A DNA stretch of 64,000 bases from Escherichia phage Av-05, in the sequence record KM190144. One strand, given 5' to 3'. The position numbers and the translations under genes were made by a program. The notes beneath the pieces were generated by a model. The model had not been told where the DNA came from and ran no database searches. It saw nothing but the letters and a program-made list of their open reading frames with translations. Shown one piece after another: positions 18,377 through 58,813 of this stretch (position 1 is its first letter; every line of letters begins with the position of its first letter).

Positions 18377-18406
18377 TTGACAGCGGGGGTAGTATAGATC
18401 TACTAT
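18377..18406 (+). promoter_or_regulatory. Sigma70-like promoter (TTGACA-18-TACTAT)
   Basis: Motif reading upstream of 18464 gene. Confidence 0.45.
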
Positions 18407-21738: not shown

Positions 21739-21930
21739 TATGCGGAATTTTGAAAAAATTGTTAAAGCTAATCGCCTGGAATACGGGGAAACAGACGGAA
21801 AAACGGGAACGGGTAGGCAAACGCCATAAACCTAAAAAGGTTCCGAAATTGTGGTGTCCTGATAAATACGATCACAAATTAAAACAGCGTATCGCTGAGA
21901 AACAGCGATTAAACGCAAGATAACAGACAA

Positions 21931-23761: not shown

Positions 23762-23807
23762 GATTACAGGGAAAGGGGCGAAAGCCCCTGCCACAGAAGG
23801 TAATAAA

Positions 23808-31851: not shown

Positions 31852-32058
31852 ATGACTGTGAAAATACCTAAAGGTGGCAGACCAGATAGAAATGCATGTG
31901 ACATGCGTGTAAGAGTAGGGAGAATGTGCCTAATTTATGGAATAACTTATCCACCAATGGTGCGGCTTAATGGTAAAATATGTAAGGTCATCGACATACC
32001 AAAAGATAACACAACACGCTTCTTGTGCAAGGTTAAAGATGAAGAGAAGGGTTTTTAA
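31852..32058 (+). CDS. Hypothetical protein (about 68 aa), lone plus-strand gene in minus-strand block
   Basis: Track ORF trimmed to ATG after AGGAGA. Confidence 0.45.
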   Translation: MTVKIPKGGRPDRNACDMRVRVGRMCLIYGITYPPMVRLNGKICKVIDIPKDNTTRFLCKVKDEEKGF

Positions 32059-32136
32059 CATCCCACACAAAAACCTAACAGTTTTGGATCTTAATGACAA
32101 CATTGTTATCTCCAGATACAGAGATAGCCACTGAAA

Positions 32137-41728: not shown

Positions 41729-41762
41729 TGTAAACCCTATTTTTTTTTCAAGGAGTTAAGCA

Positions 41763-43582: not shown

Positions 43583-45222
43583 CTATGGATTATAAGGATA
43601 AAGTTGTCAATGCTGAAGTCATACTTCCAGATGGGCATAGTATTGGAGGATCAGGACTCCCAAGCCAATCTTTTAAATTATACACAGAAGACACCGCGAC
43701 CATAAAACTTTCAGGTAATGGTGAAAAAGCAACACCACTTAAAGGTGTTGTTGTGGTGGCAGAAGATGAAAATAATGCTCTCCAAGCTGGAGATAATGGG
43801 TTAGCTGTTAAGGTGAGTCCTGCTGCAAATAACCTGCTGGAGTTGAAGCAAGGAGCATTATATGTAACAGCACCAGAGATAAATATTCCAATTTCTCCTA
43901 AAGAAGGAAACGCTTTAACAAATATAACCTCTGAAGGGGAAGAGGGGTTGTATGTTGCGCCTACCAAAGTGCAAGGATGGCTTTATGATTCTGCACCTGG
44001 TGTTGCAGCTTTGCCTGGCGCTTTCGGCTACGGAATGACAGATCCTGGAGCAATTTCACTTATTGCTAACAGTCTTGGCGATGTTGCACGTTCTGCCCAT
44101 AACCTACACCCAGGAAGGTATTATACTTTCACCACACGATCTGAGGAAATGACCGGAATAACAGAAATTATCTGGTTGGATAATGGCTGGGGCAACAAAA
44201 CCAGTCAGACAGCAACAAAGCTGGTTCTGTTTTTTGGAAAAGACGGTCGTATGAAGTATACAATCCGTGGCGACAATCTAAGCGATCCGGCAGTGTGGTA
44301 TGATTTGTTAACTACTAAGCAAACAGATATCTATGATCGTACAGAAGGTGTTGTCGCCATACCTGGCATGTTTGGATTCGGTAGTGATTTCGTCGGTATT
44401 GATACTGTCTATTTTAACAACAAAGCGGAGTTCCTTACTTGGGTGCATAATACTCGTTCTGGTCGTTATCTGGTGAGCCAGATATATGGTAGCGAGCCTA
44501 TCATTAACAGCAATGTTACGTTTAGCGGTATTCTTGAGGTTATCCCAACTGGTAGTGTTGGCGTTGGTTACGAGGAGAATTTACCTAACGTATGGAAAAA
44601 CCTTATTTTTTACGGCGCTAATTACGGCGATATCTGGTACACACGTTTTACCACACAACCGAATAACTTGTCTGGTTGGAGGTGCTTAGATAAGACAACG
44701 GATATAATCAATTTGCAGAACTCGCTTAATAGAAAAGCTCCATTGTACAACCCTAATTTCTCTGGTACACCAACAGTACCTACACCAAGCGATTCAGCAT
44801 CAGGAACCCAGATTGCCAACGTAGATTTTGTTAAAAAACAGGTATCTAATAACACTTACACACTGTCTGCTGGCACGGTTACTGTTTTAGATAGTGGATC
44901 ACAACCTACTATTGAGATAACTGGTCAATCACCATCACAGGTTTTAAATTTGGGAATACCAAAAGCACCTGATGGACAAACAATAAAATCTGTCAATGCT
45001 GTTGTTAAAGAAATAGACAGCGCACAACAGGTTACACTAACTTTTACAATGACAGATGATTCAAGTCAACAGGCGAGCTTTAATATCCCGTTTTCTCCTC
45101 AGCCGACTATGAAGCTGTCAGCAACATCTGGGAATTTCTCTTTCAATTATGGCGATACACCTTCAGCGGAAAAACGCAGCGGGAAGATCTGGGTCTTCTA
45201 TATATTTGAAAACAACAGTTGA
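43576..45222 (+). CDS. Tail fiber protein (548 aa); possible +1-frame C-terminal continuation to 45553
   Basis: Internal NPNFSGTPTVPTPS...IANVDFVKK repeat of the fiber signature; N-terminus MVAMDYKDKVVNAEV. Confidence 0.6.
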   Translation: MVAMDYKDKVVNAEVILPDGHSIGGSGLPSQSFKLYTEDTATIKLSGNGEKATPLKGVVVVAEDENNALQAGDNGLAVKVSPAANNLLELKQGALYVTAPEINIPISPKEGNALTNITSEGEEGLYVAPTKVQGWLYDSAPGVAALPGAFGYGMTDPGAISLIANSLGDVARSAHNLHPGRYYTFTTRSEEMTGITEIIWLDNGWGNKTSQTATKLVLFFGKDGRMKYTIRGDNLSDPAVWYDLLTTKQTDIYDRTEGVVAIPGMFGFGSDFVGIDTVYFNNKAEFLTWVHNTRSGRYLVSQIYGSEPIINSNVTFSGILEVIPTGSVGVGYEENLPNVWKNLIFYGANYGDIWYTRFTTQPNNLSGWRCLDKTTDIINLQNSLNRKAPLYNPNFSGTPTVPTPSDSASGTQIANVDFVKKQVSNNTYTLSAGTVTVLDSGSQPTIEITGQSPSQVLNLGIPKAPDGQTIKSVNAVVKEIDSAQQVTLTFTMTDDSSQQASFNIPFSPQPTMKLSATSGNFSFNYGDTPSAEKRSGKIWVFYIFENNS

Positions 45223-45553
45223 TCTGAACAGAGCACCTGCTGGCAGTACAGATGTTATGGTGGATGTTCGTTTGACAGAGATACCTTGTACGGAAGACGG
45301 TACGTATCTTGATTATGATATCTATGCAGAATACCCAAGTGTTGTCGGGTCAGGGCAACCCACAGTGGCTGTATGGCTTATTCTGCCAACAGTTCCCACG
45401 CATACCATTGATCCCAAGACGAAGATAATAACTAAACTTCTTCGCGGAGACGGTGGCTTATCAGGACTTAATGGAGTCATTCCTATTGCAGGTGCAGACG
45501 AACAAGTCCACGAGTTTAAATATTTCTTGCAATATTCTTATCTAAACAACTAA
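45149..45553 (+). CDS. ORF in +1 frame overlapping tail fiber 3' end (C-terminal extension or separate small gene)
   Basis: No RBS before in-frame ATGs; frame change coincides with GGAAAAAC at about 45167. Confidence 0.35.
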   Translation: MAIHLQRKNAAGRSGSSIYLKTTVDLNRAPAGSTDVMVDVRLTEIPCTEDGTYLDYDIYAEYPSVVGSGQPTVAVWLILPTVPTHTIDPKTKIITKLLRGDGGLSGLNGVIPIAGADEQVHEFKYFLQYSYLNN

Positions 45554-45563
45554 GGGGATAATT

Positions 45564-45821
45564 ATGGCAACAACAGGTGTGGCTGGTAAAGTATATGCAT
45601 CAAGCCTTGTTGATATTAAGACAGGTAAATCTGTTAAAGTTGGAGATATAGTTGCTGGAGGATCCGGTGGCTATGTTCTTCCAGAAGCGACAACATCTAC
45701 ATTAGGAGGTGTAAAGAAAGCAGAGTCCCAATCTGATTCTGTAGCCTCTGAGGTAGCTCAATTAGTAACAGATTTTAATGCTCTGCTTTCCAAGTTAAAA
45801 GCCGCTGGCATCATGGCGTAA
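45564..45821 (+). CDS. Short tail-fiber-like protein (85 aa)
   Basis: N-terminus MATTGVAGKVYASSLVDIKTGK parallels MTATTGVGGLIYGRALVDQRTGKK of 41763 gene. Confidence 0.5.
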   Translation: MATTGVAGKVYASSLVDIKTGKSVKVGDIVAGGSGGYVLPEATTSTLGGVKKAESQSDSVASEVAQLVTDFNALLSKLKAAGIMA

Positions 45822-45825
45822 TATA

Positions 45826-45850
45826 AAGACCCTTCGGGGTCTTTTATTTT
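45826..45850. terminator. Bidirectional rho-independent terminator
   Basis: GACCC-TTCG-GGGTC flanked by A-run and T-run. Confidence 0.6.
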
Positions 45851-46248
45851 AGGAAGCTCTGTACTCTTTTGTCCAAATTTGCATTAATATACGGCTCACG
45901 CCCATTTTTGTAGAAAGTACAAATATATTTTCCTGTGTAGGATTGTTTTCCTGAGATAATTGCGACATCATCAAAATATTGATATGCTTCTGCTTGCTCT
46001 GCAATTCTGCCTTCAAAACCTGATGACACAACAATAACGTCCGGTTTAAATGCTTCTCTGAATCTTTTATCGCAAGATAATTGCACAATACGGCTGATCG
46101 CCTCATCTTTTTCTTCTGGCGATAACCAACTTGCCTCGACAGATTTGTAATCGTCAAGATCTGGGTTGTTTTTTATATAGCTGGTAATACCCGCACCAAC
46201 AAGAGCACAAGCACATACTGCAAGCGTAACTTTCAAAATACTTTTCAT
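45844..46248 (-). CDS. Secreted or membrane-anchored moron protein (about 135 aa) on opposite strand within structural module
   Basis: Strong AAGGAGA RBS; N-terminal signal peptide MKSILKVTLAVCACALVGAG. Confidence 0.55.
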   Translation of the reverse strand: MKSILKVTLAVCACALVGAGITSYIKNNPDLDDYKSVEASWLSPEEKDEAISRIVQLSCDKRFREAFKPDVIVVSSGFEGRIAEQAEAYQYFDDVAIISGKQSYTGKYICTFYKNGREPYINANLDKRVQSFLK

Positions 46249-46374
46249 AATATTCTCCTTAGTTGCTAAGGACATTTTACACATAAGGGTTTTTCGTGTC
46301 AAGTGTTTTTAATGACAAAAATTGTATTTTGTGATAATATAGTTACTAACAAGTAACATAAAATGGAGAGTTAG

Positions 46375-46893
46375 ATGACAGACCAAGAAATTGTTGATTA
46401 CATCAGGCTCCTGCTTGGGTCAATATCCCCAGAGGCACTACCTGATGAAGTTATCACGGCATTCCTTGAGATGGAGAAAAAAAGAGCAAACTGGCCTAAT
46501 CCGTCATCCACACCGTGTGACATGTGGAGAGTAGTTTATAACACAATGGTAGCTGTATTAAGATGGTTAATTCTTCAAGAGATAAATTCTGGGGAAGCAT
46601 CTATCACAGAAAGACTGGAAAAGATAGGTGATGAGACGATACAGGTAAAAGGGGGATCTTCCTATCAGAACTGGAAAGATTTTCTGGACTGGTTGTTACA
46701 AAACCCTGATTACGTCAATAGCTGCCTGAATGGTGTCTCTGGTTTGGTTATTGTTGGTGGTGTGCGACAGGATGAGTTTTGGCGTGTTAAGAGTAATCCT
46801 AACTCAAGAAGCCCGTTTGATGTTTCCGGTATAGTTCCTCAAACAGGAGTTCCCGGTATTCCTCGGAGATACCCAAAACACAGGTATTGTTGA
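46375..46893 (+). CDS. Putative neck/head-tail joining protein (172 aa)
   Basis: ORF track; synteny upstream of sheath. Confidence 0.4.
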   Translation: MTDQEIVDYIRLLLGSISPEALPDEVITAFLEMEKKRANWPNPSSTPCDMWRVVYNTMVAVLRWLILQEINSGEASITERLEKIGDETIQVKGGSSYQNWKDFLDWLLQNPDYVNSCLNGVSGLVIVGGVRQDEFWRVKSNPNSRSPFDVSGIVPQTGVPGIPRRYPKHRYC

Positions 46894-46958
46894 CAATCGC
46901 ATTCCTAATTATTGATTTTGCTTGGATAATGTGGTAAAATACCTTAACGGGAGTTCTT

Positions 46959-47435
46959 ATGAGAACAAAATTTAAATCTCATCAAGATTTAAGTGCTGTG
47001 GAGAATTTTTATAATTCTGTACAGCAACTTGATAAAAAACAAGTCTCTTATGGTTATTATGATGATCCACACTATTCAGGACTGAATACTGCAACTCTGG
47101 CAGCTATCCATGAACAAGGCTGGAATAATCTTCCAGCCCGTACATTCATAACTAGCGCGGCTGTATCCTTTCAAAAGGATTTGGAGAAATTACAGAAGGA
47201 GTTATTCGGCACGTTAGCATCTGGAAGTAATAATCCAACCCCGATGCTGAAAAAAATTGGTAAAGCAGGTGCTGAAAAAATTAAGTTTGTGATAGACTCT
47301 GGGCTTTTCCCTCATAATACTGTATCAGATGCATGGGCAGATGTCAAAGGTTTTAGTGCGGCTATGTATCATTATGGGGATTTAAGAGATTCCACGACTT
47401 ATAAAATTTCGAACAGAAGAGGTTCAGGGGCGTAA
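46959..47435 (+). CDS. Putative neck/tail completion protein (158 aa)
   Basis: ORF track; synteny. Confidence 0.4.
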   Translation: MRTKFKSHQDLSAVENFYNSVQQLDKKQVSYGYYDDPHYSGLNTATLAAIHEQGWNNLPARTFITSAAVSFQKDLEKLQKELFGTLASGSNNPTPMLKKIGKAGAEKIKFVIDSGLFPHNTVSDAWADVKGFSAAMYHYGDLRDSTTYKISNRRGSGA

Positions 47436-47438
47436 ATT

Positions 47439-47873
47439 ATGGCGGGATACAAACTTATAGGCAAGAACAAATTGATACCCAGAGTTACCATGAAAGGTAG
47501 ACACAGGCAGTTCAAAAAGACAGACTTAGATAACCCATTTGAAAATGGTGGGTTGGATATTGAGTATGTTGAATTTGATGTACCTGAATGTGTCGTTCAA
47601 CCTATTAGTGGTAAAGCGGCGAGAGATTACACATCTCAATTAGTTCCTGAAGGTGGTAGGCAGTATGATTCCTTTACTGTGTATTCATCTGTGATGTTGA
47701 AAGGTCCAGTTGAAGGATCTGATAACATGGCTGATCAGATCCTATTAATGAACTCTCGTGGTGAGATGGAGTGGTTCACAGTTATTAAATCTGATTTGTA
47801 TCAGACCACAGGTGTCTCTAGGTTCAGAGCTTATGTGGTGGCAATACCAGAAGGAACAAACGGGGGTATTTAA
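47439..47873 (+). CDS. Putative tail completion protein (144 aa)
   Basis: ORF track; synteny. Confidence 0.4.
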   Translation: MAGYKLIGKNKLIPRVTMKGRHRQFKKTDLDNPFENGGLDIEYVEFDVPECVVQPISGKAARDYTSQLVPEGGRQYDSFTVYSSVMLKGPVEGSDNMADQILLMNSRGEMEWFTVIKSDLYQTTGVSRFRAYVVAIPEGTNGGI

Positions 47874-48403
47874 TGGCTGATTTTATCAGTACAGATGAGA
47901 TCTTCGATGCCTTGACGAAAACAATAGGTTCTTTTTGTAAAGAGGTTACTGGTCGAAAAGTCGTGCTGGCAGGGGAAGATGAAATACCTAAAGTTGATGG
48001 TGAGTTTATTTTGGTGGATCTTACTGCGGTAGATCAGCTTGACTGGCAATCTGATGATGGATTTACTGATGATGGTCGAGCGATGACAGTCCATAACTAC
48101 GAGGTGGTATATACATTGACTGCTTATCGCGGTAAAGCACCAAATGCCCTAAGTCGTATTTTACAGGCTATGAACTTACCTTTTATATACGATAAGTATT
48201 TCCCAACTAATTCCCCTTTTGCGTATTCCTCTTCTTCAACAATATCTCGGTTAAGAGTTCCTTTGAATGTTCAAAAATATGAAACTCGTGCTGTCGTGTT
48301 GCTAACATTCAATGTTTGCTTTGCAGAAACAGACACTGGAGTTTTCGAAGATTTGGAAACCCTCAATGCGCAACTTTCATATCATTTTCCGAAAGAGGAT
48401 TAA
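47873..48403 (+). CDS. Putative tail terminator/sheath stabiliser (176 aa)
   Basis: ORF track; immediately upstream of sheath gene. Confidence 0.4.
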   Translation: MADFISTDEIFDALTKTIGSFCKEVTGRKVVLAGEDEIPKVDGEFILVDLTAVDQLDWQSDDGFTDDGRAMTVHNYEVVYTLTAYRGKAPNALSRILQAMNLPFIYDKYFPTNSPFAYSSSSTISRLRVPLNVQKYETRAVVLLTFNVCFAETDTGVFEDLETLNAQLSYHFPKED

Positions 48404-48527
48404 AAGAAATATTTTGGTTATTGATAAGCACTGGCTTATTAGTGATCGTAAAGGGCTTTTTGCCCAAAGTACAGCACAAATAAGTGCTGGTCAATAACTG
48501 TACGTACAGAAATAAAAGAGGAAATCG

Positions 48528-49940
48528 ATGGCTTATAATGACAAGGTGGTTGATGTAACAGTCACACTTGGTACTCAACCAATCGACACAAAAGGGTTTG
48601 AAACCCCACTGTTCCTTGCGATCCATAATGTCTTCCCAGAAAGAGTTCGTGCTTATACCGAACTTAGTCAGTTAGTTGATGATGGATTTGCTGTTGGAAC
48701 ACCTGCATACAATTATGCATCTAAGGCATTTTCTGGAACATTCCGTCCACAATATCTGATGATTGGTCGTCAAGGCTTCACCAACACCGTTGTGGATTTT
48801 ACAGGACAAACTAACACAGATCCAGAGACACCTGTTGCATTGAATTTTGTTTCCGGTGCTTACCAGAAAAGCATTATTGTTAACGTTTCAGCTTCCTCTG
48901 AAGCAAATGCGATAGCTACATCTCTGGCAGCTGCGATTAATGCAGACACAACCCTGCAAACAGTACTTACTGCGACAGCAAGTGAAGCCAAAGTAACAAT
49001 TGCTCCAAAAGATGATGGTAAGTTTAGTGTTGGTAAGGACAGTGGCAACATGGTCATCACCAATACCTCTGATGAAACAGTTTCTTCTGTTCTCCCACAG
49101 GTTATGACTGCCAATGAAAACTGGTATTTCGTCAGTACTGAATCCCACACTAAGACATCTATTTTGAGTGCTGCTGCCTTTGCTGCTGCAAATTACAAGA
49201 TGCATGTTTACTCAACTGCTGACGAAAAATCTAAAACTGCCGATACCGATTCTATTGCAGATCAACTCAAAGCATTGCAATACGACACATCTATCGGTAT
49301 GTATGATCCTTTGGCAGACAGTGAGTATCCCGAGGGTGGGATTATCGGAGCGATGGCTTCGAATGACCCTTCCTATGGGGATTCTATCCACCTGAAAACT
49401 ATGGATGGGGTCATTGCTCCAACCTTAAGCGCAACGGAACGTATGACTATCTGGGGTAAGAATCTGAACTTCTACCGCATGATTAATGGTGTGGGATCCT
49501 TCTATGAAGGCAAATGTGCTTCCGGCAATTATGTAGATGTTGTGAGATTTGGTCACTGGCTTAAGTTCCGCACCGAAGAAAGTGTTTTCGGATATATGTC
49601 CCGCAGATCCAACATGGGGCTGTCTGTTAAAATGAGTGATGATGACCTCCCTAACCTGAAGTCTGTCATCATGAATAACCCTATCAACGTAGGTATTTCT
49701 AACGGAGCTATTTTAACAGGTTATGATGAGGTTAACAAGGTCTTCTTCGATCCTGTAATCACAATCCCTCTGCGTGGAAGCATACCCACTAACGATCTGG
49801 CAGCACGTACACTTAACAACGTGAAAGTGGAACTAGTGTACAACACACCACTACATTTTGTCAAGATCCGTATGACTGTCATGCTGGACAAAACAGGTTC
49901 AAATTCTGGCAACGCACAGACAGTAACAGCAGGAGTGTAA
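48528..49940 (+). CDS. Tail sheath protein (470 aa)
   Basis: Size and position immediately before a 157-aa tube gene, chaperone and tape measure; strong RBS AAGAGGAAA. Confidence 0.6.
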   Translation: MAYNDKVVDVTVTLGTQPIDTKGFETPLFLAIHNVFPERVRAYTELSQLVDDGFAVGTPAYNYASKAFSGTFRPQYLMIGRQGFTNTVVDFTGQTNTDPETPVALNFVSGAYQKSIIVNVSASSEANAIATSLAAAINADTTLQTVLTATASEAKVTIAPKDDGKFSVGKDSGNMVITNTSDETVSSVLPQVMTANENWYFVSTESHTKTSILSAAAFAAANYKMHVYSTADEKSKTADTDSIADQLKALQYDTSIGMYDPLADSEYPEGGIIGAMASNDPSYGDSIHLKTMDGVIAPTLSATERMTIWGKNLNFYRMINGVGSFYEGKCASGNYVDVVRFGHWLKFRTEESVFGYMSRRSNMGLSVKMSDDDLPNLKSVIMNNPINVGISNGAILTGYDEVNKVFFDPVITIPLRGSIPTNDLAARTLNNVKVELVYNTPLHFVKIRMTVMLDKTGSNSGNAQTVTAGV

Positions 49941-49943
49941 TAA

Positions 49944-50417
49944 ATGAATACAGCTATTCTAACGCCGTATGCATATGACCCTAAAAAAGTAAAACTGTAT
50001 CTGATGACTCAAAGAGTAACAGGATTCGCAGCGGACACGAAAATTGTGGTGTCCCGTAATGAAGACAATATCATTCCCCACATGGGGGTTGATGGTGAGC
50101 TATCTGCTGCACTGTCCCGTAACCAATCTGGTGTTATGACGGTTTCTCTTCAGAATACAGCATCATGGAATGGTAATTTAGCAAACTGGCAAAAACAAGC
50201 ATCCGTAACTGGTCTTATTTTCTTCCCTGTTCTTCTGGAAGGTTCTCAAGGTATGGGTTTGAGTACAATTGGATGGATTCAGAAGCAGCCTGACCTTACT
50301 TACGGAACGGAAGTTGGTCAAATGGACTGGGAAATTGGTATTCTGGATGCTTGGTTGAGTCCTGATACTCTGTCCTCTGTTGGCTTCGGCCTCGCTGGAC
50401 TTTCCGGTATCGTTTAA
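49944..50417 (+). CDS. Tail tube protein (157 aa)
   Basis: Synteny (sheath-tube-chaperone-TMP); AGGAG RBS. Confidence 0.6.
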   Translation: MNTAILTPYAYDPKKVKLYLMTQRVTGFAADTKIVVSRNEDNIIPHMGVDGELSAALSRNQSGVMTVSLQNTASWNGNLANWQKQASVTGLIFFPVLLEGSQGMGLSTIGWIQKQPDLTYGTEVGQMDWEIGILDAWLSPDTLSSVGFGLAGLSGIV

Positions 50418-50428
50418 TAATTTCGTGT

Positions 50429-50452
50429 GCCACATGGATGTGGCCTTTATAC
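50429..50452 (+). terminator. Hairpin/attenuator after tube gene
   Basis: GCCACA-TGGA-TGTGGC followed by CTTTAT. Confidence 0.4.
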
Positions 50453-50492
50453 ACGTAAGGATAATTCAACTTTTAAAGACGCAGGAGCGTGC

Positions 50493-50960
50493 ATGAAAAT
50501 TAGACAAACAACTGAAATTGACCTCGCAGGTCACAACTTTGTTATCACACATTGGTCTCCAACAAAAGCATTTAAAAATATTCCTAAGATAGGACGTTAT
50601 ATTGCTGTTCCAATGGCATCCATCTCTGGGGCACTTATGTCTGGTGGGCAGAATCTTTCTGATGCTATCCCAACAGCAGTATTATACCTGTTTGACCAGA
50701 TGGAGCAAGATAATATTGAAGAACTTTTTGCCTTAATTCTGGACGATGTATCTGTTGATGGTATGGCAGGTAAGGTAGACATTGATGATATTTTCCAAGG
50801 GAAGATGATGGACCTTATCAAACTCGTGGCAAAAGTGCTGGAGGTTAATTACGGCTGTTTTTTCACGAAAGACGGTTTCGCAAGCCTTCAGGATCTTCTG
50901 GGACGCCTGGGTCAGACCCATCAACTGAACACGATGGATCAGGCAGAGGAAGCGGAGTAA
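50493..50960 (+). CDS. Tail assembly chaperone (G-like; about 156 aa)
   Basis: Track ORF trimmed to ATG after AGGAG; position between tube and tape measure. Confidence 0.55.
   Translation: MKIRQTTEIDLAGHNFVITHWSPTKAFKNIPKIGRYIAVPMASISGALMSGGQNLSDAIPTAVLYLFDQMEQDNIEELFALILDDVSVDGMAGKVDIDDIFQGKMMDLIKLVAKVLEVNYGCFFTKDGFASLQDLLGRLGQTHQLNTMDQAEEAE
50858..50864 (+). promoter_or_regulatory. Candidate -1 programmed ribosomal frameshift slippery site TTTTTTC
   Basis: Heptamer T_TTT_TTC in the zero frame of the chaperone; the -1 frame opens at 50849 and runs to 51238. Confidence 0.55.
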
Positions 50961-50995
50961 CACCGTCCAATATTTCGAAAGTTGTCCTGAGAGCT

Positions 50996-51238
50996 ATGAA
51001 TTATGCAAGAAAAAATAGCTCATTGACTTGGTTCGATTATTTGTGGTGTCGTGCTCTGAAGAGTTTTAAAGGTGAGTCTTATTCCTCACTTGAGTCTGCT
51101 GACATGGCCTACCTGCTTAAACTGAACGAATATCTTGATATTGAAGAGTTTATCCAAGACGTACAGGAGAGAGAGGAACAAAGTGCAGCCAATGCTGCCG
51201 CCGCTGCAAATAGGTCGCGCCGAGGTAGAAGAGGTTAA
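50996..51238 (+). CDS. C-terminal extension of chaperone in -1 frame (GT-like frameshift product tail)
   Basis: -1 frame ORF open from 50849 to 51238; weak own RBS. Confidence 0.5.
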   Translation: MNYARKNSSLTWFDYLWCRALKSFKGESYSSLESADMAYLLKLNEYLDIEEFIQDVQEREEQSAANAAAAANRSRRGRRG

Positions 51239-51244
51239 TCTCAA

Positions 51245-51278
51245 GCCAGGTTCCTTCTCGGAACCTGGCTTTTTTATT
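51245..51278 (+). terminator. Rho-independent terminator/attenuator before tape measure gene
   Basis: GCCAGGTTCC-TTCTC-GGAACCTGGC followed by TTTTTTATT. Confidence 0.6.
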
Positions 51279-51289
51279 GAGGAAAATCT

Positions 51290-53671
51290 ATGGCGAATAT
51301 CATAGTAACTAAAACCGTAAATACTGTCGAGTGGTCTGTAGATCGCACCAGTTACGGTCGTGCAATGAAAGCTATAAAATCCCTGAAGAAGGAATGGGAA
51401 AAGACTAACAGAGCTTTCACTTCTAATAAAAGTAATCCGGCAGCAATTTATAAACGTTCTGCACAAGAGGCTCGTCTTGTAGCTAAAAGATTACACCAAA
51501 CTGAACGTGCAGAGCAAGCAAAATCTACGGCACATGCTATTGCAATGGCAAAAAAGGAAGCTCGTGCTCGTGAACAAATAGCTAAAGTTGAGAGCGCGAG
51601 AAGAAAGCAAGCAGTAGCCAGACTAACAAACAGAAGAACACCCGAAGAACAAAAAGAATATAATGCATTAAAATCAAAGTTGAAGCAGATGGAAAAAACA
51701 GGTTCTGGGTATGGGACAAATCCAGAAATATCTGCTGCCCGTCAAGCAAGATTGCAGCAAGAACTTGCAGCAAGGAAGTCTTCAGGATCTGCCTCTGGTA
51801 TTGTTGGGGATCCTAATAGTCGCCACGACCCAAGTCTTGTGGCTGCTCAGAACTCTGCTATGGAACGCTATCATAAATCTATCCCGAAAGAAAAAACAGC
51901 GGATGAGATTAAGGCAGAAAAAGATGCTAATAAGAAGAAAGAAAGAGAAGCGTTAAGAGCAGAAAGAATAAAGGCTGCAAAACAATCAACGATTGCTAAT
52001 GCTGCTGTAAGACTTCGTGCTAAGTATGGTGATGATTTCAGATCTAAAATTAAAGGTTATGATGATCTGGAAAAGAGATTTATGCAAAGCCAGACTATGA
52101 GAGCTTCTAATTTCCGTGCTGAATTGGCAGCAATGGAAACAGGACTCCGCAAAGCTAAGGCAAATACACTATCTCTTGATCAAGGATTGAAGAACCTTCG
52201 TAGCACATTAATTAGTGTTTCTGCTGCATACGGGGCTTTTAATGCTGCCGCAAGTGTTGTGAAAACAGGGCAATTCTTTCAAGGCATGGAAGCTACCATG
52301 TTAATGGTTTCTGATGACTCAGAAGAAGCTGCGAAAAGAATGCAGTTTGTTCGGGAGCAATCTTACAGATTGGGTTTGGATTTAAAAACCGCCGCTCAAG
52401 GTTATACCCAAATGGCTATCTCTGCTAACGGTGTTTTGAGCAAGGCGCAAAATGACGAACTGTTCAAAGGCCTCTCAGAATATGCTACTGCACTTCAGGT
52501 TGATCCTGTAAAATACCAGCGTGGTATCACTGCTATCCAACAAATGATGGGTAAAGGTCAGATCATGGCTGAGGAGTTAAAATCACAACTTTCCGAAGGT
52601 ATTCCAGGTTCTCTTAATGTATTCCTTAAAGCCACACAAGAAGCATTCAATGATTCATCTATAGACATTGCAAAATTAATGGATATGATGAAGAATGGAG
52701 AGCTAAAGGCTTCAAAAATTCTTCCTTTGGTTGCTAAGTATTATGCCGAGGCCGCAAGAAAAGGTGGTGCACTTACCAAGGCACAACAAAGCAACCGTGT
52801 TGCTATGCAGCGTTTACAACAAACGTGGATGAACTTTCAGAATCAAATATTTGAAAGTGGTTTTGGTGAAGCCTTGACAGACACGTTTAACAATCTGGCA
52901 AAAGCCTTGGATAGTAATGGGGAATTGGCACGTAACATAGGACAGATAACAAAAGGTTTTGTTGAAGGCTTTATGTGGGTATTCTACCAAATATATAATA
53001 TCTTTATAGATATTGACGGGATTTTGCAGAGATATATCCCAATTTTCAGAAGAAATGGTGATGAATTAGGGAAGGCTTGGGAATGGACAGGAATGGCTAT
53101 AGGAGCTTTGTTCTTCGCCACTTCGCTAGGTAGAGTTTTCACTATCTTATCTAAAATCGCAGGACTTTCGAAGTCTCTCAAATTTTTGAAAACACTTGGT
53201 GGTGGGGTAGCTACGCCAACCGCTCCAAGCAAAGGCCCGTGGGGGGGAGGTGGATCTGGAAAAGGATCATTTCCGTTTTTCTTAAATCCCTATGCTGCTG
53301 CAACAGTTTGGGGTTTGGATTATGCGGTCTCCACTGATAGTGAGAAAGATGATAAAAAGCGGCAGCTTGGTAATGCCTATTCCTATGGTAGTGGTGACTT
53401 CATGGCTGTGGTTGGAGGGATGTTAACAAACTGGTGGTCATCCCTGTGGGCTGGGCATATGCAGGATAAAGCTAACTATCTCCAATCCCATAATCTAATG
53501 CCTGGTGGTTCGACGGGTCAAACTGTAGCCCCTATGGTCATTCCTACCGAGCCTGTCAGTGGTGAAATAACCATTAAAATAGATGCTGGTGAATTACGCA
53601 ATATGATTGATCAGCAAATAGAGACAGCCAATATGGATAACATTAATCTTATTCTCGCTGTCCCTCAATAA
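51290..53671 (+). CDS. Tail tape measure protein (793 aa)
   Basis: Long helical Ala/Lys/Glu-rich protein with C-terminal hydrophobic/Gly-rich segment, after chaperone pair. Confidence 0.7.
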   Translation: MANIIVTKTVNTVEWSVDRTSYGRAMKAIKSLKKEWEKTNRAFTSNKSNPAAIYKRSAQEARLVAKRLHQTERAEQAKSTAHAIAMAKKEARAREQIAKVESARRKQAVARLTNRRTPEEQKEYNALKSKLKQMEKTGSGYGTNPEISAARQARLQQELAARKSSGSASGIVGDPNSRHDPSLVAAQNSAMERYHKSIPKEKTADEIKAEKDANKKKEREALRAERIKAAKQSTIANAAVRLRAKYGDDFRSKIKGYDDLEKRFMQSQTMRASNFRAELAAMETGLRKAKANTLSLDQGLKNLRSTLISVSAAYGAFNAAASVVKTGQFFQGMEATMLMVSDDSEEAAKRMQFVREQSYRLGLDLKTAAQGYTQMAISANGVLSKAQNDELFKGLSEYATALQVDPVKYQRGITAIQQMMGKGQIMAEELKSQLSEGIPGSLNVFLKATQEAFNDSSIDIAKLMDMMKNGELKASKILPLVAKYYAEAARKGGALTKAQQSNRVAMQRLQQTWMNFQNQIFESGFGEALTDTFNNLAKALDSNGELARNIGQITKGFVEGFMWVFYQIYNIFIDIDGILQRYIPIFRRNGDELGKAWEWTGMAIGALFFATSLGRVFTILSKIAGLSKSLKFLKTLGGGVATPTAPSKGPWGGGGSGKGSFPFFLNPYAAATVWGLDYAVSTDSEKDDKKRQLGNAYSYGSGDFMAVVGGMLTNWWSSLWAGHMQDKANYLQSHNLMPGGSTGQTVAPMVIPTEPVSGEITIKIDAGELRNMIDQQIETANMDNINLILAVPQ

Positions 53672-53675
53672 TTTG

Positions 53676-53700
53676 AAGGGGCTTTTGCCCCTTTTATTGT
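53676..53700 (+). terminator. Rho-independent terminator
   Basis: AAGGGGC-TTTT-GCCCCTT followed by TTATTGTTTT. Confidence 0.6.
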
Positions 53701-53751
53701 TTTAATAAAAGATTTATGATAAAATCATACAAGAACAAGTGAGGGTTTTTC

Positions 53752-54624
53752 ATGGCTTCAGTTTCTAATAACCAGTCAAAACCACAGCAAGGGAAGGCCA
53801 CGGCAAATGTTGAAAGAAAAGTAAACAATGCGCAGGATACAAGTGCTGGCGTTAAGTATACACTTTTTGCTAGTGGTCTTAATTATGGTGGTCGTAATAT
53901 TGAGTTAAAAGACAAAAATTATACAGATGATCTGGCAATAATTTTCGATGTTGTCGAGGAACACACCTATACAAGAGAAGTGGATAAAACATCTTACGCA
54001 GTTGAAGATAGGGTTAAATTCAGCGACCACGGTGTAATAAAAGATGGGAAATTCTCTTTTAGCGCAAGGGTTAGCTCATCACCACTCTCAATTATTCAGT
54101 TTAACTACATAGATAAAGATACTGATAATAAAAACCCTGCTGCATCAAAAAGACCAGAAAAAGCCCTAGAGATTCTTGAACGTCTTATAGACCAACGACA
54201 AATTGTAACTCTTGTGACAGAGGATAGAATCTTAGATAATTACATCCTCACTTCAATGGAAGCATCACGTAGTAATTCTGATGGTGCGGCATTAGTTTTT
54301 CAATTAGAGTTTACAGAGTTCCGTACATTTACATTGGGAAAGACCATCTTAGCCACCATCTATACAGACGCTAAAAAAACAGGAAAGACAAAGCAAAAAG
54401 GGGCTGTTCAATCTTCGGCTAACCAAGAAGAGTTAGATGTTACAGCTATGAGAACACGGTATATAGGGCCGGATGCTGAGAACAGGCAGAAAATGGCAGA
54501 CGCGAGAGGGTATGGCAATTTTACGAAACATGACACCAAAGTTGGCACATTATCTCCAGATGGGAAATTAAGAGATTTAGAAGGTAATATCACAGATTAT
54601 GATAGCCTAGTGGGGAAAAATTAA
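53752..54624 (+). CDS. Tail/baseplate-associated protein (290 aa)
   Basis: ORF track; synteny after TMP. Confidence 0.4.
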   Translation: MASVSNNQSKPQQGKATANVERKVNNAQDTSAGVKYTLFASGLNYGGRNIELKDKNYTDDLAIIFDVVEEHTYTREVDKTSYAVEDRVKFSDHGVIKDGKFSFSARVSSSPLSIIQFNYIDKDTDNKNPAASKRPEKALEILERLIDQRQIVTLVTEDRILDNYILTSMEASRSNSDGAALVFQLEFTEFRTFTLGKTILATIYTDAKKTGKTKQKGAVQSSANQEELDVTAMRTRYIGPDAENRQKMADARGYGNFTKHDTKVGTLSPDGKLRDLEGNITDYDSLVGKN

Positions 54625-54971
54625 TGAAAGTTACATTTTCGTGGGATATTGATGGATTTGCCGACCAAACAATGAGAGTCGTTTTGGACAGCAGGACTTA
54701 TGAAATGAGATTCCAATGGAATGAGAGAGATGAATCTTGGTTGGTATATTTTGGGGATGTTGGTTCAGAACCTACGGTGTCCTTCAAATTAACAACAATA
54801 TTCGATATACTGGAACCTTTTAAGTATATGGAAAACATTCCTAATGGTGTTTTGAGTGTTTGGTCATTCAGTTCATCTACAAAACGTGTTGGAAGGTACA
54901 ATATCGGATTTCTTGCAGATCTCCAACTTCTTTATTCATCTCCTGATGAGGAGTTAACAGGTGAGGAGTAA
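54624..54971 (+). CDS. Small baseplate-associated protein (115 aa)
   Basis: ORF track; TAATG overlap. Confidence 0.4.
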   Translation: MKVTFSWDIDGFADQTMRVVLDSRTYEMRFQWNERDESWLVYFGDVGSEPTVSFKLTTIFDILEPFKYMENIPNGVLSVWSFSSSTKRVGRYNIGFLADLQLLYSSPDEELTGEE

Positions 54972-54976
54972 TAATT

Positions 54977-55975
54977 ATGCCATCTTACAGAACAAGAACA
55001 TATAAACTAACAATAGGCAAACCAGTATATATCGGAGAAAAGCCTACAAATATTTCCGATTATACAAATAAAAACAGTAAAGATGCTTATGTTGTAAGTA
55101 ATGAGTACGGTTCTGCAAATATAGAATTTGAAGTTAAAAAAGATAACTCGAAAGACCCCAACAAAGGTTACGTAACAATTTACAATTTGAGTGATGAAAC
55201 AGTTAGCTATTTAGATGCTAACCAGAGAGAATCTATAGCCATAGTGTTGGAGGCTGGGTTTGATGGTGAAAACCAAATGTTATTCTCTGGGACAGTAGAG
55301 TTTGTTCAGGATAAATGGGATGGAAATACCCGCCAAACAAAGATGATCCTTGGTGATGCAACCACAAATATTATGACTGCTAAAACAGCAAGATCATATA
55401 AAAAAGGAACACCTTTAGATACTGTTCTTAATGATTTGATTTCCGATTTAAAATTACCTATCGGAAAAGTTGTTAAATTCGGGAATAGGACTCTTCAACA
55501 ATCAATGGCATTCACAGGGAATGCTGCTAATAATCTTGAGAGATTAGCCAGAAATACAGGTTCCACATTTAGTGTCCAGGATGGCGCTGTGTACTGGACA
55601 ACACAAGGTAAAAGATTTAAGAACGCTGTTTTTGAAATAAGCGCAGAATCTGGGATGCATGATTCTCCAACCCCACAGAATCCAGAACCTGCTAAAAGAA
55701 GACTTGAGAAAGAAAGCAAAAAGAAAAAAAGGAAACCTAAACCTGGCACGGATACAAGACCAAGTAGAGCAAGAATAAAAGAAGACGCTGGGTTGGTTGT
55801 AACCACAGAGCTTAATGGGGCAATTATTCCTGAGAGCACAATTTATTTGAAGAGTCATAAATATACAGGTTTCTATAAAGTAGTATATTTGACACACAAA
55901 GGGCAACTTGAAGGTGGAGATTGGATTTCCGAAATTGGCCTTGCTGAAGCCCGTGGTGGTGTTGTGGAGGAATAA
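54977..55975 (+). CDS. Baseplate hub-like protein (332 aa)
   Basis: Synteny before spike protein; GAGGAG RBS. Confidence 0.45.
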   Translation: MPSYRTRTYKLTIGKPVYIGEKPTNISDYTNKNSKDAYVVSNEYGSANIEFEVKKDNSKDPNKGYVTIYNLSDETVSYLDANQRESIAIVLEAGFDGENQMLFSGTVEFVQDKWDGNTRQTKMILGDATTNIMTAKTARSYKKGTPLDTVLNDLISDLKLPIGKVVKFGNRTLQQSMAFTGNAANNLERLARNTGSTFSVQDGAVYWTTQGKRFKNAVFEISAESGMHDSPTPQNPEPAKRRLEKESKKKKRKPKPGTDTRPSRARIKEDAGLVVTTELNGAIIPESTIYLKSHKYTGFYKVVYLTHKGQLEGGDWISEIGLAEARGGVVEE

Positions 55976-56676
55976 TGGCAGCAATTCAAAGAATGGACGC
56001 AGCATTGAATCAGTGGTTTGCGAGACAAGCCAGAGACATCCATACAGGATTAAGGGCGAAGGTTGTTGAGGTTGATTATAGCATACCCTCAGCAACTGTA
56101 CAACCTTTAGCATCCACCAATTTCGATGACGGAACAGTAGATGCATATCCTGCTGTTTTCGATGTGCCGCTTTCGATGCCAAGCGCAAACGGCGGTAAGG
56201 CAAGACTTACATTGCCTGTTAAACCCGGTGATATTGTCGGGTTATCTTTTTCAGAGAGAAATGAGTCAGATGCTAATGACTTAACGACACACGGTTTATT
56301 TCCTGGGTGGTCAATCATTGGTGTTCACAGTGATGGGAATGCAATGGTTATCGACCCAAACAATGTGGAATTATGGAACGATCAAGTTCATTTCTCTCTT
56401 GCCCCTGAAGGAGATTTTGTATTAAAAGGCCCAGTGGGAACATTTACTGTTGATAAAGATGGCAAAATGTCTTTTACCAACGGGTCTGCGACATTGACAG
56501 CGAAGCCTGATGGGAATATAGAGATGAATGGGGCGAAGGTGACACCAGATGGGAATATTGTGACAGCTAGAGGTGTGAATTTAAATGATTTCTACGACTG
56601 GTTTGCAAGGCACACACACCACTATGTTTGGACAGACCCATCTGGTGAAAGTGACACAAATGTCCCTAACAAATAA
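55975..56676 (+). CDS. Baseplate central spike protein (gpV/gp45-like, 233 aa)
   Basis: OB-fold-like N-terminus, Gly-rich beta-helix-like repeats and C-terminal ARHTHH His cluster typical of spike tips. Confidence 0.55.
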   Translation: MAAIQRMDAALNQWFARQARDIHTGLRAKVVEVDYSIPSATVQPLASTNFDDGTVDAYPAVFDVPLSMPSANGGKARLTLPVKPGDIVGLSFSERNESDANDLTTHGLFPGWSIIGVHSDGNAMVIDPNNVELWNDQVHFSLAPEGDFVLKGPVGTFTVDKDGKMSFTNGSATLTAKPDGNIEMNGAKVTPDGNIVTARGVNLNDFYDWFARHTHHYVWTDPSGESDTNVPNK

Positions 56677-56685
56677 GGAGTCTAA

Positions 56686-57213
56686 ATGGCAACTCTCTAT
56701 TCTGATTTATTAATGGATCCTGTTACTGGGGATCTCGATGTCTCAGAAGGTCTTAAACTGATAGAATCAAACCAAGTTAGTCTTCGTCAACGTTTATGGC
56801 TAAGGTTTAATGTCTGGCAAGGAGACTGGTATTTCGATGAGACATTCGGATTCCCATATCGAACATATATTAGCAAGAAGGTTATGAAGACTGTACTTGA
56901 TAATAAGATAAAAGAGGTGACGAGGCAGGAACCGGACGTTTTGGAAATAACTTATTTTCATTCCACAATGGATTCAGGAACAAGAAGCTATCAAGCATAT
57001 TTTGAAGTGACAACCAAAGAACAAGAGGTTGTTAGGATTGCCTTTATAGGGCAGGATGAGTATTATTATCCAGAAGCTGATGCAGGGACAACAATCCTTT
57101 GCGATGATGATGGCTGGATACTTTGGGCTAACAAACTCTATTATCTCATCAATTTCCGTTTGCCTCGTACAGGCGACGCAACTTGGTGGAATAAGTGGGC
57201 AACTAATGAATAA
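56686..57213 (+). CDS. Baseplate wedge protein (gp25/gpW-like, 175 aa)
   Basis: Synteny between spike and baseplate J-like gene. Confidence 0.45.
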   Translation: MATLYSDLLMDPVTGDLDVSEGLKLIESNQVSLRQRLWLRFNVWQGDWYFDETFGFPYRTYISKKVMKTVLDNKIKEVTRQEPDVLEITYFHSTMDSGTRSYQAYFEVTTKEQEVVRIAFIGQDEYYYPEADAGTTILCDDDGWILWANKLYYLINFRLPRTGDATWWNKWATNE

Positions 57214-57216
57214 TGG

Positions 57217-57243
57217 AAAGGGGCATAAGCCCCTTTATTTGTG
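57217..57243 (+). terminator. Rho-independent terminator-like hairpin
   Basis: AAAGGGGC-ATAA-GCCCCTTT followed by ATTTGTGTTT. Confidence 0.5.
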
Positions 57244-57318
57244 TTTACTATTTATAATTAAGACATATTGTGGTAAAATAACCACATCTTATAATAATTT
57301 ACAAGAGGAGGCATAATC

Positions 57319-57633
57319 GTGGCTGCTCAATTTGGATTAAATGACTACGGTTTTTCAATTCCGTCCCTTGATGACTTGATAACAGATACCAAGCAATCCC
57401 TTATTAGAGCTTTTGGTGAAAACTTTAACACCCAAACTAACTCCGTTGTTGATAAGATCACTACTATTTTCAACGAAAGGGAATATCAATTAATTCTTTT
57501 GGCTGCATCTATTTATGCAGCACAAACGTTAGCAGGGGCAGAAGGTATATATCTTGACGAGATTCTTGGTCGTCGTGGGATATTCCGTAGAGGAAAAACC
57601 AAAGGGTCCGGTACTGGTTCAAATGGTAATTAA
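57319..57633 (+). CDS. Baseplate J-like protein, N-terminal segment (GTG start); frame breaks relative to downstream segment
   Basis: AGGAGG RBS; ends ...LDEILGRRGIFRRGKTKGSGTG then stop. Confidence 0.45.
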   Translation: MAAQFGLNDYGFSIPSLDDLITDTKQSLIRAFGENFNTQTNSVVDKITTIFNEREYQLILLAASIYAAQTLAGAEGIYLDEILGRRGIFRRGKTKGSGTGSNGN

Positions 57634-58813
57634 TAACACAGTGCCGTATAATATGATTTATGATGCCGCAACATACAGTATTGACGGTGGGAATTTTGTG
57701 TTAACAGAAGATACTGCCGTTGCTGGTAATATCATAGCGCAGCAAATAACCAATCAGGATTGGGTTCTTGGTAACTACACCATCCAGATAGTTAACCAGA
57801 ATGATGGGACAACAAAGACACTGAACCTATCTCTGAAAAACAAAACCCCAAACAGCACCGAATTAAACTCTTTTATGATGGCTATGAAAGAGTTTATAGT
57901 CGATAATACAACTTATCTGAACGAAGATAAGATCTTTATCGAATCTTCTTCAGGAAGTATGTTTATAGGTTATGATCAAAATAAGAAAATGATTGGTCTT
58001 AATGCTCCTGTTGACTTTAGAACATCACCCCTGCTTGGTCAAAGAACAATAACCATGGATGTTATTGCTGTTGAAGCAGGAGAAATATCTAGAGAAGCAG
58101 AGACAGTTACCAACATAAGCCCGACACCAAGTGGTTTTGTTAGCTTGACGAACAGGGAAGCATTTAGTGATGGTACAGATGTTGAGACGGATACAGAATA
58201 TAAGCTGAGGGCTTCGAGCACCACATCAACAGGTGCTGCCGCAACACGGCCAGCTATTGTTTCTGCTGTTTTAAATGTGCCTGGTGTAAGTAAGGTTAAA
58301 ATTTTCTCCAACAATACTGGTGTGACAAACGAGTACGGTGTTCCAGCGTATAAGTTTGAGACAGTAGTCTATGGTGGGGCCACAGAAGATATCAGTAAGG
58401 CACTTTATAATACCATAGCACTCTCTAATGCTACTTATGGTGATGTATTCTATGATGTGACTACAGAAGATGACCAAGTAGAAAGAATTTATCATAGCAA
58501 GGCAAAAGTAAGGCAACTTGAAATTCGTGTCAGATATAAAGGTAAATTACTATCCCTTACAGAACAGAACACGATCAGGGATTCCCTTAAAGCTGTTGTT
58601 GATCCTCTTAACATTGCAGATACGTTGTACAATATCCAACTTGTTTCTGCTGTGGGGTCATCCATCTCATCAGGTAGATTTACTCAACTTTTAGTAGATG
58701 TCAAAAACAAAGGTGAACCAGACAGTACGTATACTAATGATGATATTGTTGCTACTATGACAGAAGTTTTCGCTGTAGAGTTAAATGACATAACTTTCCA
58801 GCAAGTTCTTTAA
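57554..58813 (+). CDS. Baseplate J-like protein, C-terminal segment (+1 frame)
   Basis: 419-aa ORF in +1 frame overlapping upstream segment; no own RBS; frame change at GGAAAAACC (about 57590). Confidence 0.5.
   Translation: MTRFLVVVGYSVEEKPKGPVLVQMVINNTVPYNMIYDAATYSIDGGNFVLTEDTAVAGNIIAQQITNQDWVLGNYTIQIVNQNDGTTKTLNLSLKNKTPNSTELNSFMMAMKEFIVDNTTYLNEDKIFIESSSGSMFIGYDQNKKMIGLNAPVDFRTSPLLGQRTITMDVIAVEAGEISREAETVTNISPTPSGFVSLTNREAFSDGTDVETDTEYKLRASSTTSTGAAATRPAIVSAVLNVPGVSKVKIFSNNTGVTNEYGVPAYKFETVVYGGATEDISKALYNTIALSNATYGDVFYDVTTEDDQVERIYHSKAKVRQLEIRVRYKGKLLSLTEQNTIRDSLKAVVDPLNIADTLYNIQLVSAVGSSISSGRFTQLLVDVKNKGEPDSTYTNDDIVATMTEVFAVELNDITFQQVL

What the first reader, a model, noticed from the sequence alone, without database searches (positions are those of the whole stretch)
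45149..57633. Two structural genes broken by a +1 frame change at the same GGAAAAAC motif
The tail fiber (frame change near 45167, GCGGAAAAACGC) and the baseplate J-like gene (near 57590, AGGAAAAACCAAA) both continue in the +1 frame without an RBS. The shared A5 tract suggests a homopolymer sequencing error, programmed +1 frameshifting or transcriptional slippage, or true pseudogenisation.
Basis: seen in the sequence. Interest (0 to 1): 0.45.

Follow-up and report, generated by a model that had tools for sequence, protein, structure and literature searches.

The report
Single-base insertion errors splitting phage genes
Two tail genes of Escherichia phage Av-05 look broken only because this one database record carries an extra G in each; every related phage has the genes intact, so this is almost certainly a sequence error, not biology.

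Summary
The window is Escherichia phage Av-05 (KM190144). Both +1 frame breaks are really in the sequence. Each comes from one extra G, not from the A5 tract.

- **Tail fibre:** CG[G]AAAAACG at 45168/45169. Relatives read CGAAAAACG, with the same A5.
- **Baseplate J gene:** ACTG[G]TTC at 57616/57617, 18 nt downstream of the end of GGAAAAAC. That motif is unchanged in relatives whose gene is intact.

Twelve fetched relative loci (about eleven independent sequences) carry one 497-aa baseplate ORF. Three contigs plus phage TH18/18-1-2 carry one full-length tail-fibre ORF. Deleting one G restores gapless colinearity, and the downstream differences are mostly synonymous.

I found two more small genes broken the same way. 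One is at 21797/21798, in the identical 10-mer CGGAAAAACG. The other is at 32049 (AAG[G]GTTTTT).

The record was assembled de novo from 36-nt Illumina reads in Geneious. It is 13–17 kb shorter than its relatives. It also has a junction at 41739/41740 that truncates a gene.

The best explanation is context-dependent single-G insertion artefacts in the deposited consensus. Programmed +1 frameshifting or transcriptional slippage is not supported: the arrangement is not conserved, site 2 has no shift-prone codon, and A5 is too short. Interest is low. The record needs correcting.

The parts
43585..45168 (+). Tail-fibre gene, part upstream of the extra base (frame 1). The record annotates it as a 545-aa 'tail fiber protein' that runs on to a stop at 45222.
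   Evidence: P0034. It is colinear with the 649–651-aa single ORFs of L017–L019 and the 593-aa ORF of TH18/18-1-2.
45168..45169 (+). GG, one G of which is extra (CG[G]AAAAACG). This is the actual tail-fibre frame break.
   Evidence: L017, L018 and L003/L004 (the last two are two records of one near-identical phage) all read GCG-AAAAACGC with A5 unchanged.
45170..45553 (+). Tail-fibre gene, C-terminal 127 codons in frame 2 (KNAAGRSGSS…YLNN*).
   Evidence: (96% amino-acid identity to the TH18 C-terminus).
57319..57616 (+). Baseplate_J / baseplate-wedge gene, first 99 codons (frame 1). The record annotates it as the 104-aa 'putative baseplate component' AII27639.1.
   Evidence: 100% identity to TH18 over 106 aa.
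57592..57599 (+). It is not the break point and is conserved in relatives with an intact gene.
57616..57617 (+). GG, one G of which is extra (ACTG[G]TTC). This is the actual baseplate frame break.
   Evidence: Twelve fetched loci (L001/L004, which are one near-identical phage, and L007–L016) plus PVP-SE1 have a single G.
57618..58813 (+). Baseplate_J gene, remaining 398 codons in frame 2. The Pfam Baseplate_J match lies here.
   Evidence: PF04865, E = 8.2e-13; PHROG 6 spans residues 6–495 of the corrected protein.
21740..21923 (+). Small gene (60 aa in relatives, phrog_8176) broken by an extra G at 21797/21798, in the same 10-mer CGGAAAAACG as the tail-fibre break.
   Evidence: TH18, L021 and L022 all lack the G.
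31852..32134 (+). Small gene (93 aa in TH18, phrog_13562) broken by an extra G in the run at 32049–32051 (AAG[G]GTTTTTAAC).
41739..41740 (.). Junction in the record. To the left is a gene lacking its first 33 codons. To the right are the RBS and start of the first tail-fibre gene. Gene order and orientation differ here from TH18 and PVP-SE1.

Best explanation
The window is part of the GenBank/RefSeq record of Escherichia phage Av-05 (Vequintavirinae, Avunavirus). The two 'broken' structural genes are ordinary single genes: a ~655-aa tail fibre and a 497-aa Baseplate_J-type wedge protein. In this record each carries one spurious extra G that doubles an existing G, at 45168/45169 and at 57616/57617. 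At least two further small genes carry the same lesion, at 21797/21798 and 32049.

The most likely origin is a context-dependent single-base insertion in the consensus. The genome was assembled de novo from 36-nt Illumina GAIIx reads with Geneious. I infer that minority insertion columns next to A/T runs were carried into the consensus. In the real phage both genes would then be translated conventionally in one frame.

What is shown: the lesion is private to this record, its position is known exactly, and removing one base restores the ORFs. What is inferred: that the lesion is technical rather than a real mutation.
For: 1. **Source.** The 104-aa fragment is exactly AII27639.1 of phage Av-05, from a 120,938-bp contig.
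2. **Private lesion.** The baseplate gene is one 497-aa ORF in ten contigs from different samples, in 18-1-2/TH18 and in PVP-SE1. All have one G where Av-05 has GG. The tail fibre is one ORF of 649–651 aa in three contigs and 593 aa in TH18, all without the extra G.
3. **No decay.** Removing one G gives a gapless 1494-nt alignment with six relatives. Downstream differences are 16–43 synonymous against 2–6 non-synonymous codons. The corrected proteins match Baseplate_J/PHROG 6 and tail-fibre PHROGs across the break.
4. **Repeated signature.** Four gene-breaking differences in 64 kb are all +1 insertions of a G next to a G on the same strand, and three lie directly 5' of an A5 or T5 run. Two are in the identical 10-mer CGGAAAAACG. 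TH18 has exactly two CGAAAAACG in the homologous 100 kb, and both are the affected sites. The 21797 insertion is absent from three independent relatives.
5. **Record quality.** Reads were 36 nt and the Geneious de novo assembly was reported as a single contig. The read number and coverage stated in the paper are inconsistent with each other, by my arithmetic. The genome is 13–17 kb shorter than its relatives. A junction at 41739/41740 truncates a gene and contradicts the order conserved in TH18 and PVP-SE1.
6. **Essential function.** The rV5 homologue (gp36) was detected in virions (PMC3606486). Av-05 is a plaque-propagated lytic phage, so a true null in this gene is unlikely.
Against: - No reads are available, so a real mutation in the sequenced stock cannot be excluded directly.
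- Illumina chemistry is not known for fixed indel errors at high coverage. The proposed route (consensus calling in Geneious) is therefore an inference, not something shown.
- The strict context of two sites (CGAAAAACG to CGGAAAAACG) could also reflect a real sequence-specific process.
- Only about four such lesions occur in 64 kb, so the record is not riddled with errors.
Confidence: 0.86

Rival explanations
1. These are real frameshift mutations, fixed or in the majority in the sequenced Av-05 lysate. On this view the genes are very recent pseudogenes, or defective genomes were carried along by complementation at high multiplicity.
For: The sequence as deposited has the breaks. The absence of decay downstream is also what a very recent mutation would give.
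Against: Four independent frameshifts would be needed, two of them in virion genes whose homologue is a virion component, in a plaque-purified lytic phage. All four are the same kind of change (G doubling, same strand) and two share an identical 10-mer. That pattern fits a systematic technical cause better than independent mutations. No other sequence in the databases shares any of them.
Confidence: 0.08
2. Programmed +1 ribosomal frameshifting, or transcriptional slippage, at or near GGAAAAAC restores the full-length tail fibre and baseplate proteins. This would resemble the +1 frameshifts in the structural genes of Listeria phage PSA, or prfB.
For: Both breaks are +1. A shared GGAAAAAC lies in both overlap zones, and a third gene (21740–21923) is broken at the same 10-mer as the tail fibre. 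The downstream frames are under purifying selection. A tRNA-Lys on AAA could in principle slip at GAA AAA C (my own knowledge, not tested).
Against: - The arrangement is not conserved. Every relative, down to about 98% local identity, encodes the proteins in one frame.
- In the baseplate gene, frame 1 stays identical to relatives for 8 codons beyond the A5 tract. The break at ACU GGU has no re-pairing option for the P-site tRNA, and no stop or rare codon follows (codon reasoning is inference).
- A5 is well below the 7–9 nt runs known to give efficient transcriptional slippage (established knowledge).
- One relative has GGAAAGAC at the motif, so the run is not under selection.
Confidence: 0.03
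3. The genes are truly split, and the downstream ORFs are expressed independently from internal starts (TTG 57554 or ATG 57623; ATG 45149), giving two-piece proteins.
For: An AGAAGG lies 8 nt upstream of TTG 57554 (read directly).
Against: The same internal sequence is present in relatives where it is simply coding. No split versions of either gene were found among the homologues fetched. There is no convincing RBS before ATG 45149. The Baseplate_J family profile spans the break.
Confidence: 0.02

Closest known systems
Single-base indel artefacts in deposited phage genomes (frameshifted CDS that annotators fix or flag)
   Same: The lesion is private to one record. One base restores a conserved full-length ORF. 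There is no downstream decay. Several genes are affected by the same kind of change, and the assembly is old, short-read and low in quality.
   Different: The platform was Illumina, not 454 or Ion Torrent. The inserted base is a G beside an A/T run rather than a change in the length of the long homopolymer. The exact technical route is not established.
Programmed +1 translational frameshifting in phage structural genes (Listeria phage PSA cps/tsh) and in prfB
   Same: A +1 frame change inside virion structural genes, with a long ORF continuing downstream.
   Different: Known cases are conserved among relatives. They also have a defined shift codon with a stop or slow codon in the A site, and stimulators such as an SD-like sequence or a downstream structure. 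Here the arrangement is absent from all relatives, and no shift-prone codon exists at the baseplate site.
Transcriptional slippage on homopolymeric A/T runs (e.g. Thermus dnaX, IS elements, Shigella mxiE)
   Same: An A-run lies near the frame change at the tail-fibre site.
   Different: The run is only 5 nt and has the same length in relatives with an intact frame. The baseplate break is not at an A-run.
Baseplate_J (PF04865) / PHROG 6 baseplate wedge subunit; PVP-SE1 gp047, rV5 gp36
   Same: The corrected 497-aa protein matches the family end to end and sits in the conserved position, between the sheath-initiator-like gene and the DUF2612 baseplate gene.
   Different: Nothing beyond the extra G in this record.

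Membership tests
Sequence or assembly insertion artefact | The lesion is found only in this record and is absent from close relatives. | tested here: met
   Twelve fetched loci for the baseplate gene (about eleven independent sequences), four for the tail fibre (three independent) and three relatives for the 21797 site all lack the extra G. Exact-pattern scans for the GG versions found nothing.
Sequence or assembly insertion artefact | Removing one base restores a full-length colinear ORF with no further lesions. | tested here: met
Sequence or assembly insertion artefact | Reads or resequencing show the base is absent from the real genome. | not testable with these tools
   No reads are available. 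The paper gives only the platform and the assembler.
Programmed +1 ribosomal frameshift (prfB / phage PSA type) | The frame arrangement is conserved among related genomes. | tested here: not met
   All relatives encode each protein in one frame.
Programmed +1 ribosomal frameshift (prfB / phage PSA type) | A shift-prone P-site codon whose tRNA can re-pair in +1, followed by a stop or slowly decoded A-site codon. | tested here: not met
   Read directly from the sequence. The baseplate site is ACU GGU UCA, with no re-pairing and a common Gly codon. The tail-fibre site is GCG GAA AAA CGC, where only a weak Lys-tRNA slip is conceivable and no stop or rare codon follows.
Programmed +1 ribosomal frameshift (prfB / phage PSA type) | A trans-frame protein product is detected. 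| not testable with these tools
   This needs virion mass spectrometry of Av-05.
Transcriptional slippage | A homopolymer run of about 7–9 nt or more at the frame change. | tested here: not met
   The run is A5 at site 1, with the same length in relatives. There is no run at the site 2 break.
Baseplate_J (PF04865) | A Pfam match above the gathering threshold. | tested here: met
   48.7 bits against a cut-off of 21.1, E = 8.2e-13, residues 239–334 of the corrected protein. PHROG 6, E = 1.1e-48.

The most novel reading that the evidence does not exclude
The extra G is real and sequence-specific. On this reading, CGAAAAACG became CGGAAAAACG at both copies of that 9-mer (tail fibre and the small gene at 21740–21923) through a motif-directed mutational or editing process. 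Alternatively, CGGAAAAACG acts as a lineage-specific +1 recoding signal that Av-05 uses in several genes.
Probability: 0.03. Interest if true: 0.6.

Novelty: not a real feature. Interest (0 to 1): 0.07.

Why it matters
The main value is curation. Av-05 is the exemplar genome of the genus Avunavirus and a RefSeq record. Its annotation currently lists four fragment CDSs where there should be two virion genes, and at least two further small genes are split. The record also probably contains a mis-join and lacks 13–17 kb.

Anyone using it for taxonomy, host-range (tail-fibre) comparisons or gene-family building inherits these errors. If the breaks were real and decoded, this would be a rare case of multiple +1 recoding events in a coliphage. 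The evidence here makes that very unlikely.

Tried and rejected
- **Shared motif as the break site.** Alignment with relatives puts the baseplate break 18 nt past the end of the motif (25 nt from its start), and the motif is conserved in intact genes.
- **A-run length error (A5 versus A4).** Relatives also have A5.
- **IMG/VR scans.** Five scans looked for either allele at all four sites or for tail-fibre relatives, and none found anything. The GTDB genome scan and the complete E. coli genome search also found nothing.
- **Exact-protein look-ups.** Four neighbouring window proteins used to fetch more relatives were not on record.
- **Logan protein P0003 (105 aa).** It clusters with the truncated baseplate fragment, but it ends differently (…GSGTVLLITI) on a 2.1-kb contig that folds back on itself at that point. 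It is an unrelated assembly artefact, not a second occurrence of the Av-05 break.
- **Strand and base bias of all single-base insertions versus TH18.** G accounts for 7 of 25 (my tally from the list). This is suggestive but not significant alone. Only the gene-breaking subset (4 of 4 are G) and the shared 10-mer are striking.
Full report
**What the window is.** The 104-aa product of 57319–57633 is exactly AII27639.1/YP_009111170.1, 'putative baseplate component' of Escherichia phage Av-05, on a 120,938-bp contig. Neighbouring proteins are also exact Av-05 entries. Av-05 belongs to the Vequintavirinae (rV5/PVP-SE1-like). The nearest records are the near-identical Escherichia phages 18-1-2, 19-1-2, 24-2-1 and vB_EcoM_TH18, at about 94% identity over the structural region, followed by PVP-SE1-like phages at about 75%.

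**Checking the observation.**
- ORF listing and translation confirm both breaks.
- The tail-fibre gene runs in frame 1 to a stop at 45222 and its C-terminal part continues in frame 2 to 45553.
- The baseplate gene runs in frame 1 from 57319 to a stop at 57633 and continues in frame 2 to 58813.
- GGAAAAAC is present at 45168 and at 57592.
- So the sequence facts are right, and both shifts are +1.

**Where the breaks really are.**
- *Tail fibre.* Alignment with relatives locates the extra base exactly. Av-05 reads TCAGCGGAAAAACGC where 18-1-2/TH18 and two metagenomic or SRA-derived contigs read TCAGCG-AAAAACGC. The A-run is A5 in all of them, and the extra base is a G. The relative's protein, …PSAKNAAGRSGSS…, equals Av-05 frame 1 up to SA and frame 2 from KNAAGR.
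- *Baseplate.* Av-05 frame 1 reads RRGKTKGSGT, identical to relatives, through and beyond the A5 tract. The extra base is a G in GGTACTGGTTCAAATGG, against GGTACT-GTTCAAATGG in twelve fetched loci and in PVP-SE1.
- The GGAAAAAC motif in this gene is therefore not the break. It is present unchanged in relatives with an intact gene, and one relative has GGAAAGAC.
- The 'same motif' link between the two structural genes is thus not a property of the breaks.

**The genes are single genes everywhere else.**
- Ten contigs from different samples, fetched through the neighbouring DUF2612 baseplate protein, all have one 497-aa ORF at this position. So do 18-1-2/TH18 and PVP-SE1 gp047, annotated 'baseplate wedge subunit'.
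- A search with the repaired tail fibre found full-length single proteins of 650, 649 and 651 aa (80–84% identity, 100% coverage) and the 593-aa TH18 protein. Their contigs show one ORF in the same gene context.
- With one G removed, the Av-05 baseplate gene is 1494 nt and aligns without gaps to six relatives. Downstream of the break there are 16–43 synonymous against 2–6 non-synonymous codon differences.
- The repaired protein matches Pfam Baseplate_J above threshold, and PHROG 6 over residues 6–495. The repaired tail fibre matches tail-fibre PHROGs.
- The rV5 homologue gp36 was detected in virions (PMC3606486).

**More breaks of the same kind.** I compared the whole window with TH18 by blastn and tblastn. 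In large conserved genes only these two frame breaks appear, but two annotated small genes are also broken in Av-05.
- *Gene at 21740–21923.* It is 60 aa in TH18, belongs to phrog_8176 and is followed by a terminator hairpin. An extra G sits at 21797/21798 in GACGGAAAAACGGG, against GAC-GAAAAACGGG. All nine substitutions downstream are synonymous in the TH18 frame (my reading of the alignment). Two independent metagenome contigs also lack the G.
- *Gene at 31852–32134.* It is 93 aa in TH18 and belongs to phrog_13562. An extra G sits in AAG[G]GTTTTTAAC at 32049.
- *Shared signature.* All four gene-breaking differences are +1 insertions of a G next to an existing G, on the same strand. Three lie directly 5' of an A5 or T5 run.
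- *The shared 10-mer.* The tail-fibre site and the 21797 site share the identical 10-mer CGGAAAAACG. TH18 contains exactly two copies of CGAAAAACG in the homologous 100 kb, and those two are the affected sites. Av-05 has none left. This is far from random placement and points to a context-dependent process.

**Quality of the record.**
- The genome announcement (PMC4463512) reports Illumina GAIIx 36-base reads assembled de novo with Geneious R7 into one contig. It gives 54.6 million reads yet '~100x' coverage, which do not agree by my arithmetic. It also claims 97% identity to RB69, alongside the PVP-SE1-like gene content it describes.
- The genome is 13–17 kb shorter than relatives of 134–138 kb.
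- Window 1–41739 is colinear with TH18 66148–107833, but 41740–64000 matches TH18 58383–36230 inverted.
- At that junction a gene (the TH18 peg170 homologue) loses its first 33 codons and abuts the RBS of the first tail-fibre gene.
- Both TH18 and PVP-SE1 instead have major capsid protein, a hypothetical gene, then tail fibre.
- This looks like a mis-join, or at least a draft-level assembly.

**Most likely explanation.**
- The extra Gs are artefacts of the deposited consensus. In the real phage both genes are read conventionally in one frame.
- I infer, but cannot show, that read-level insertion errors beside A/T runs were carried into the consensus during gapped de novo assembly. This would explain three things: all the lesions are insertions, they are the same base, and they recur in the same context.

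**Rival explanations.**
- *Real mutations.* They would require four independent frameshifts, including two in virion genes, in a plaque-propagated lytic phage.
- *Programmed +1 frameshifting or transcriptional slippage.* It is contradicted by the lack of conservation in relatives up to about 98% identical locally. There is also no shift-prone codon at ACU GGU in the baseplate gene, and the A5 run is short and of unchanged length.
- *Independent expression of the downstream ORFs.* It has no support beyond a chance SD-like AGAAGG before TTG 57554, which is equally present inside the intact genes of relatives.

**Verdict.** The 'sequencing error' reading is supported in a modified form, as an extra G rather than an A-run miscall. 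This is not a biological feature. Its practical value is as a correction to a RefSeq exemplar genome.

Noticed in passing
window 41739/41740 (context 41183–41765): Rearrangement junction relative to TH18 and PVP-SE1. A minus-strand gene (homologue of TH18 peg170, MRYYTGVGSRETPPEV…) lacks its first 33 codons and abuts the RBS of the tail-fibre gene at 41763. Window 1–41739 and 41740–64000 are in opposite relative orientation compared with TH18. This is a probable mis-join in the Av-05 assembly.
   Followed up: partly
window 21740–21923 and 31852–32134: Two further small conserved genes (phrog_8176 and phrog_13562) are split by single extra Gs at 21797/21798 and 32049. The first is in the same 10-mer CGGAAAAACG as the tail-fibre break.
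   Followed up: yes
window 267–1397 (minus strand): The terminase large-subunit ORF carries an intein-like insertion inside the Walker A region (…IIGGAAG|CLSKDHEVLTPSGW … VVVTGN|SGKSYLL…). It is about 73 aa shorter than the corresponding TH18 piece. TH18 annotates the terminase in three pieces with an HNH endonuclease gene between them.
   Followed up: partly
window 18385 and 10534: There are two more extra Gs relative to relatives in apparently non-coding DNA. At 18385 a G4 run becomes G5 inside a promoter-like TTGACAGC[G]GGGGTAGTAT, and the extra G is absent from TH18 and L021. At 10534 the sequence reads GAT[G]AAAAACCCC, between the homologues of TH18 peg106 and peg107.
   Followed up: partly
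window 44383–44917 and tail-fibre homologues P0038–P0045: The tail fibre is mosaic. Its N-terminal ~62–65% is 89–94% identical to 534–547-aa proteins that have a different C-terminus. The middle segment has no blastn match in TH18 (the whole upstream part of the protein is only 65% identical). Residues ~240–560 resemble lambdoid prophage tail fibres at ~50% identity. This is typical module exchange.
   Followed up: no
L006 (Logan SRR14663239 contig, 2115 bp) 1703–1763: This contig folds back on itself (an inverted repeat join) just after the GSGT codons of the baseplate gene, giving a 105-aa truncated product. It is an unrelated assembly artefact that happens to cluster with the Av-05 fragment.
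   Followed up: partly
window 23685–24029 versus TH18 (L005 9227–9765): Here Av-05 has one 115-aa ORF where TH18 annotates two (peg132 and peg133), because TH18 has one more A in an A-run (window 23805). So frame differences are not all on the Av-05 side.
   Followed up: no
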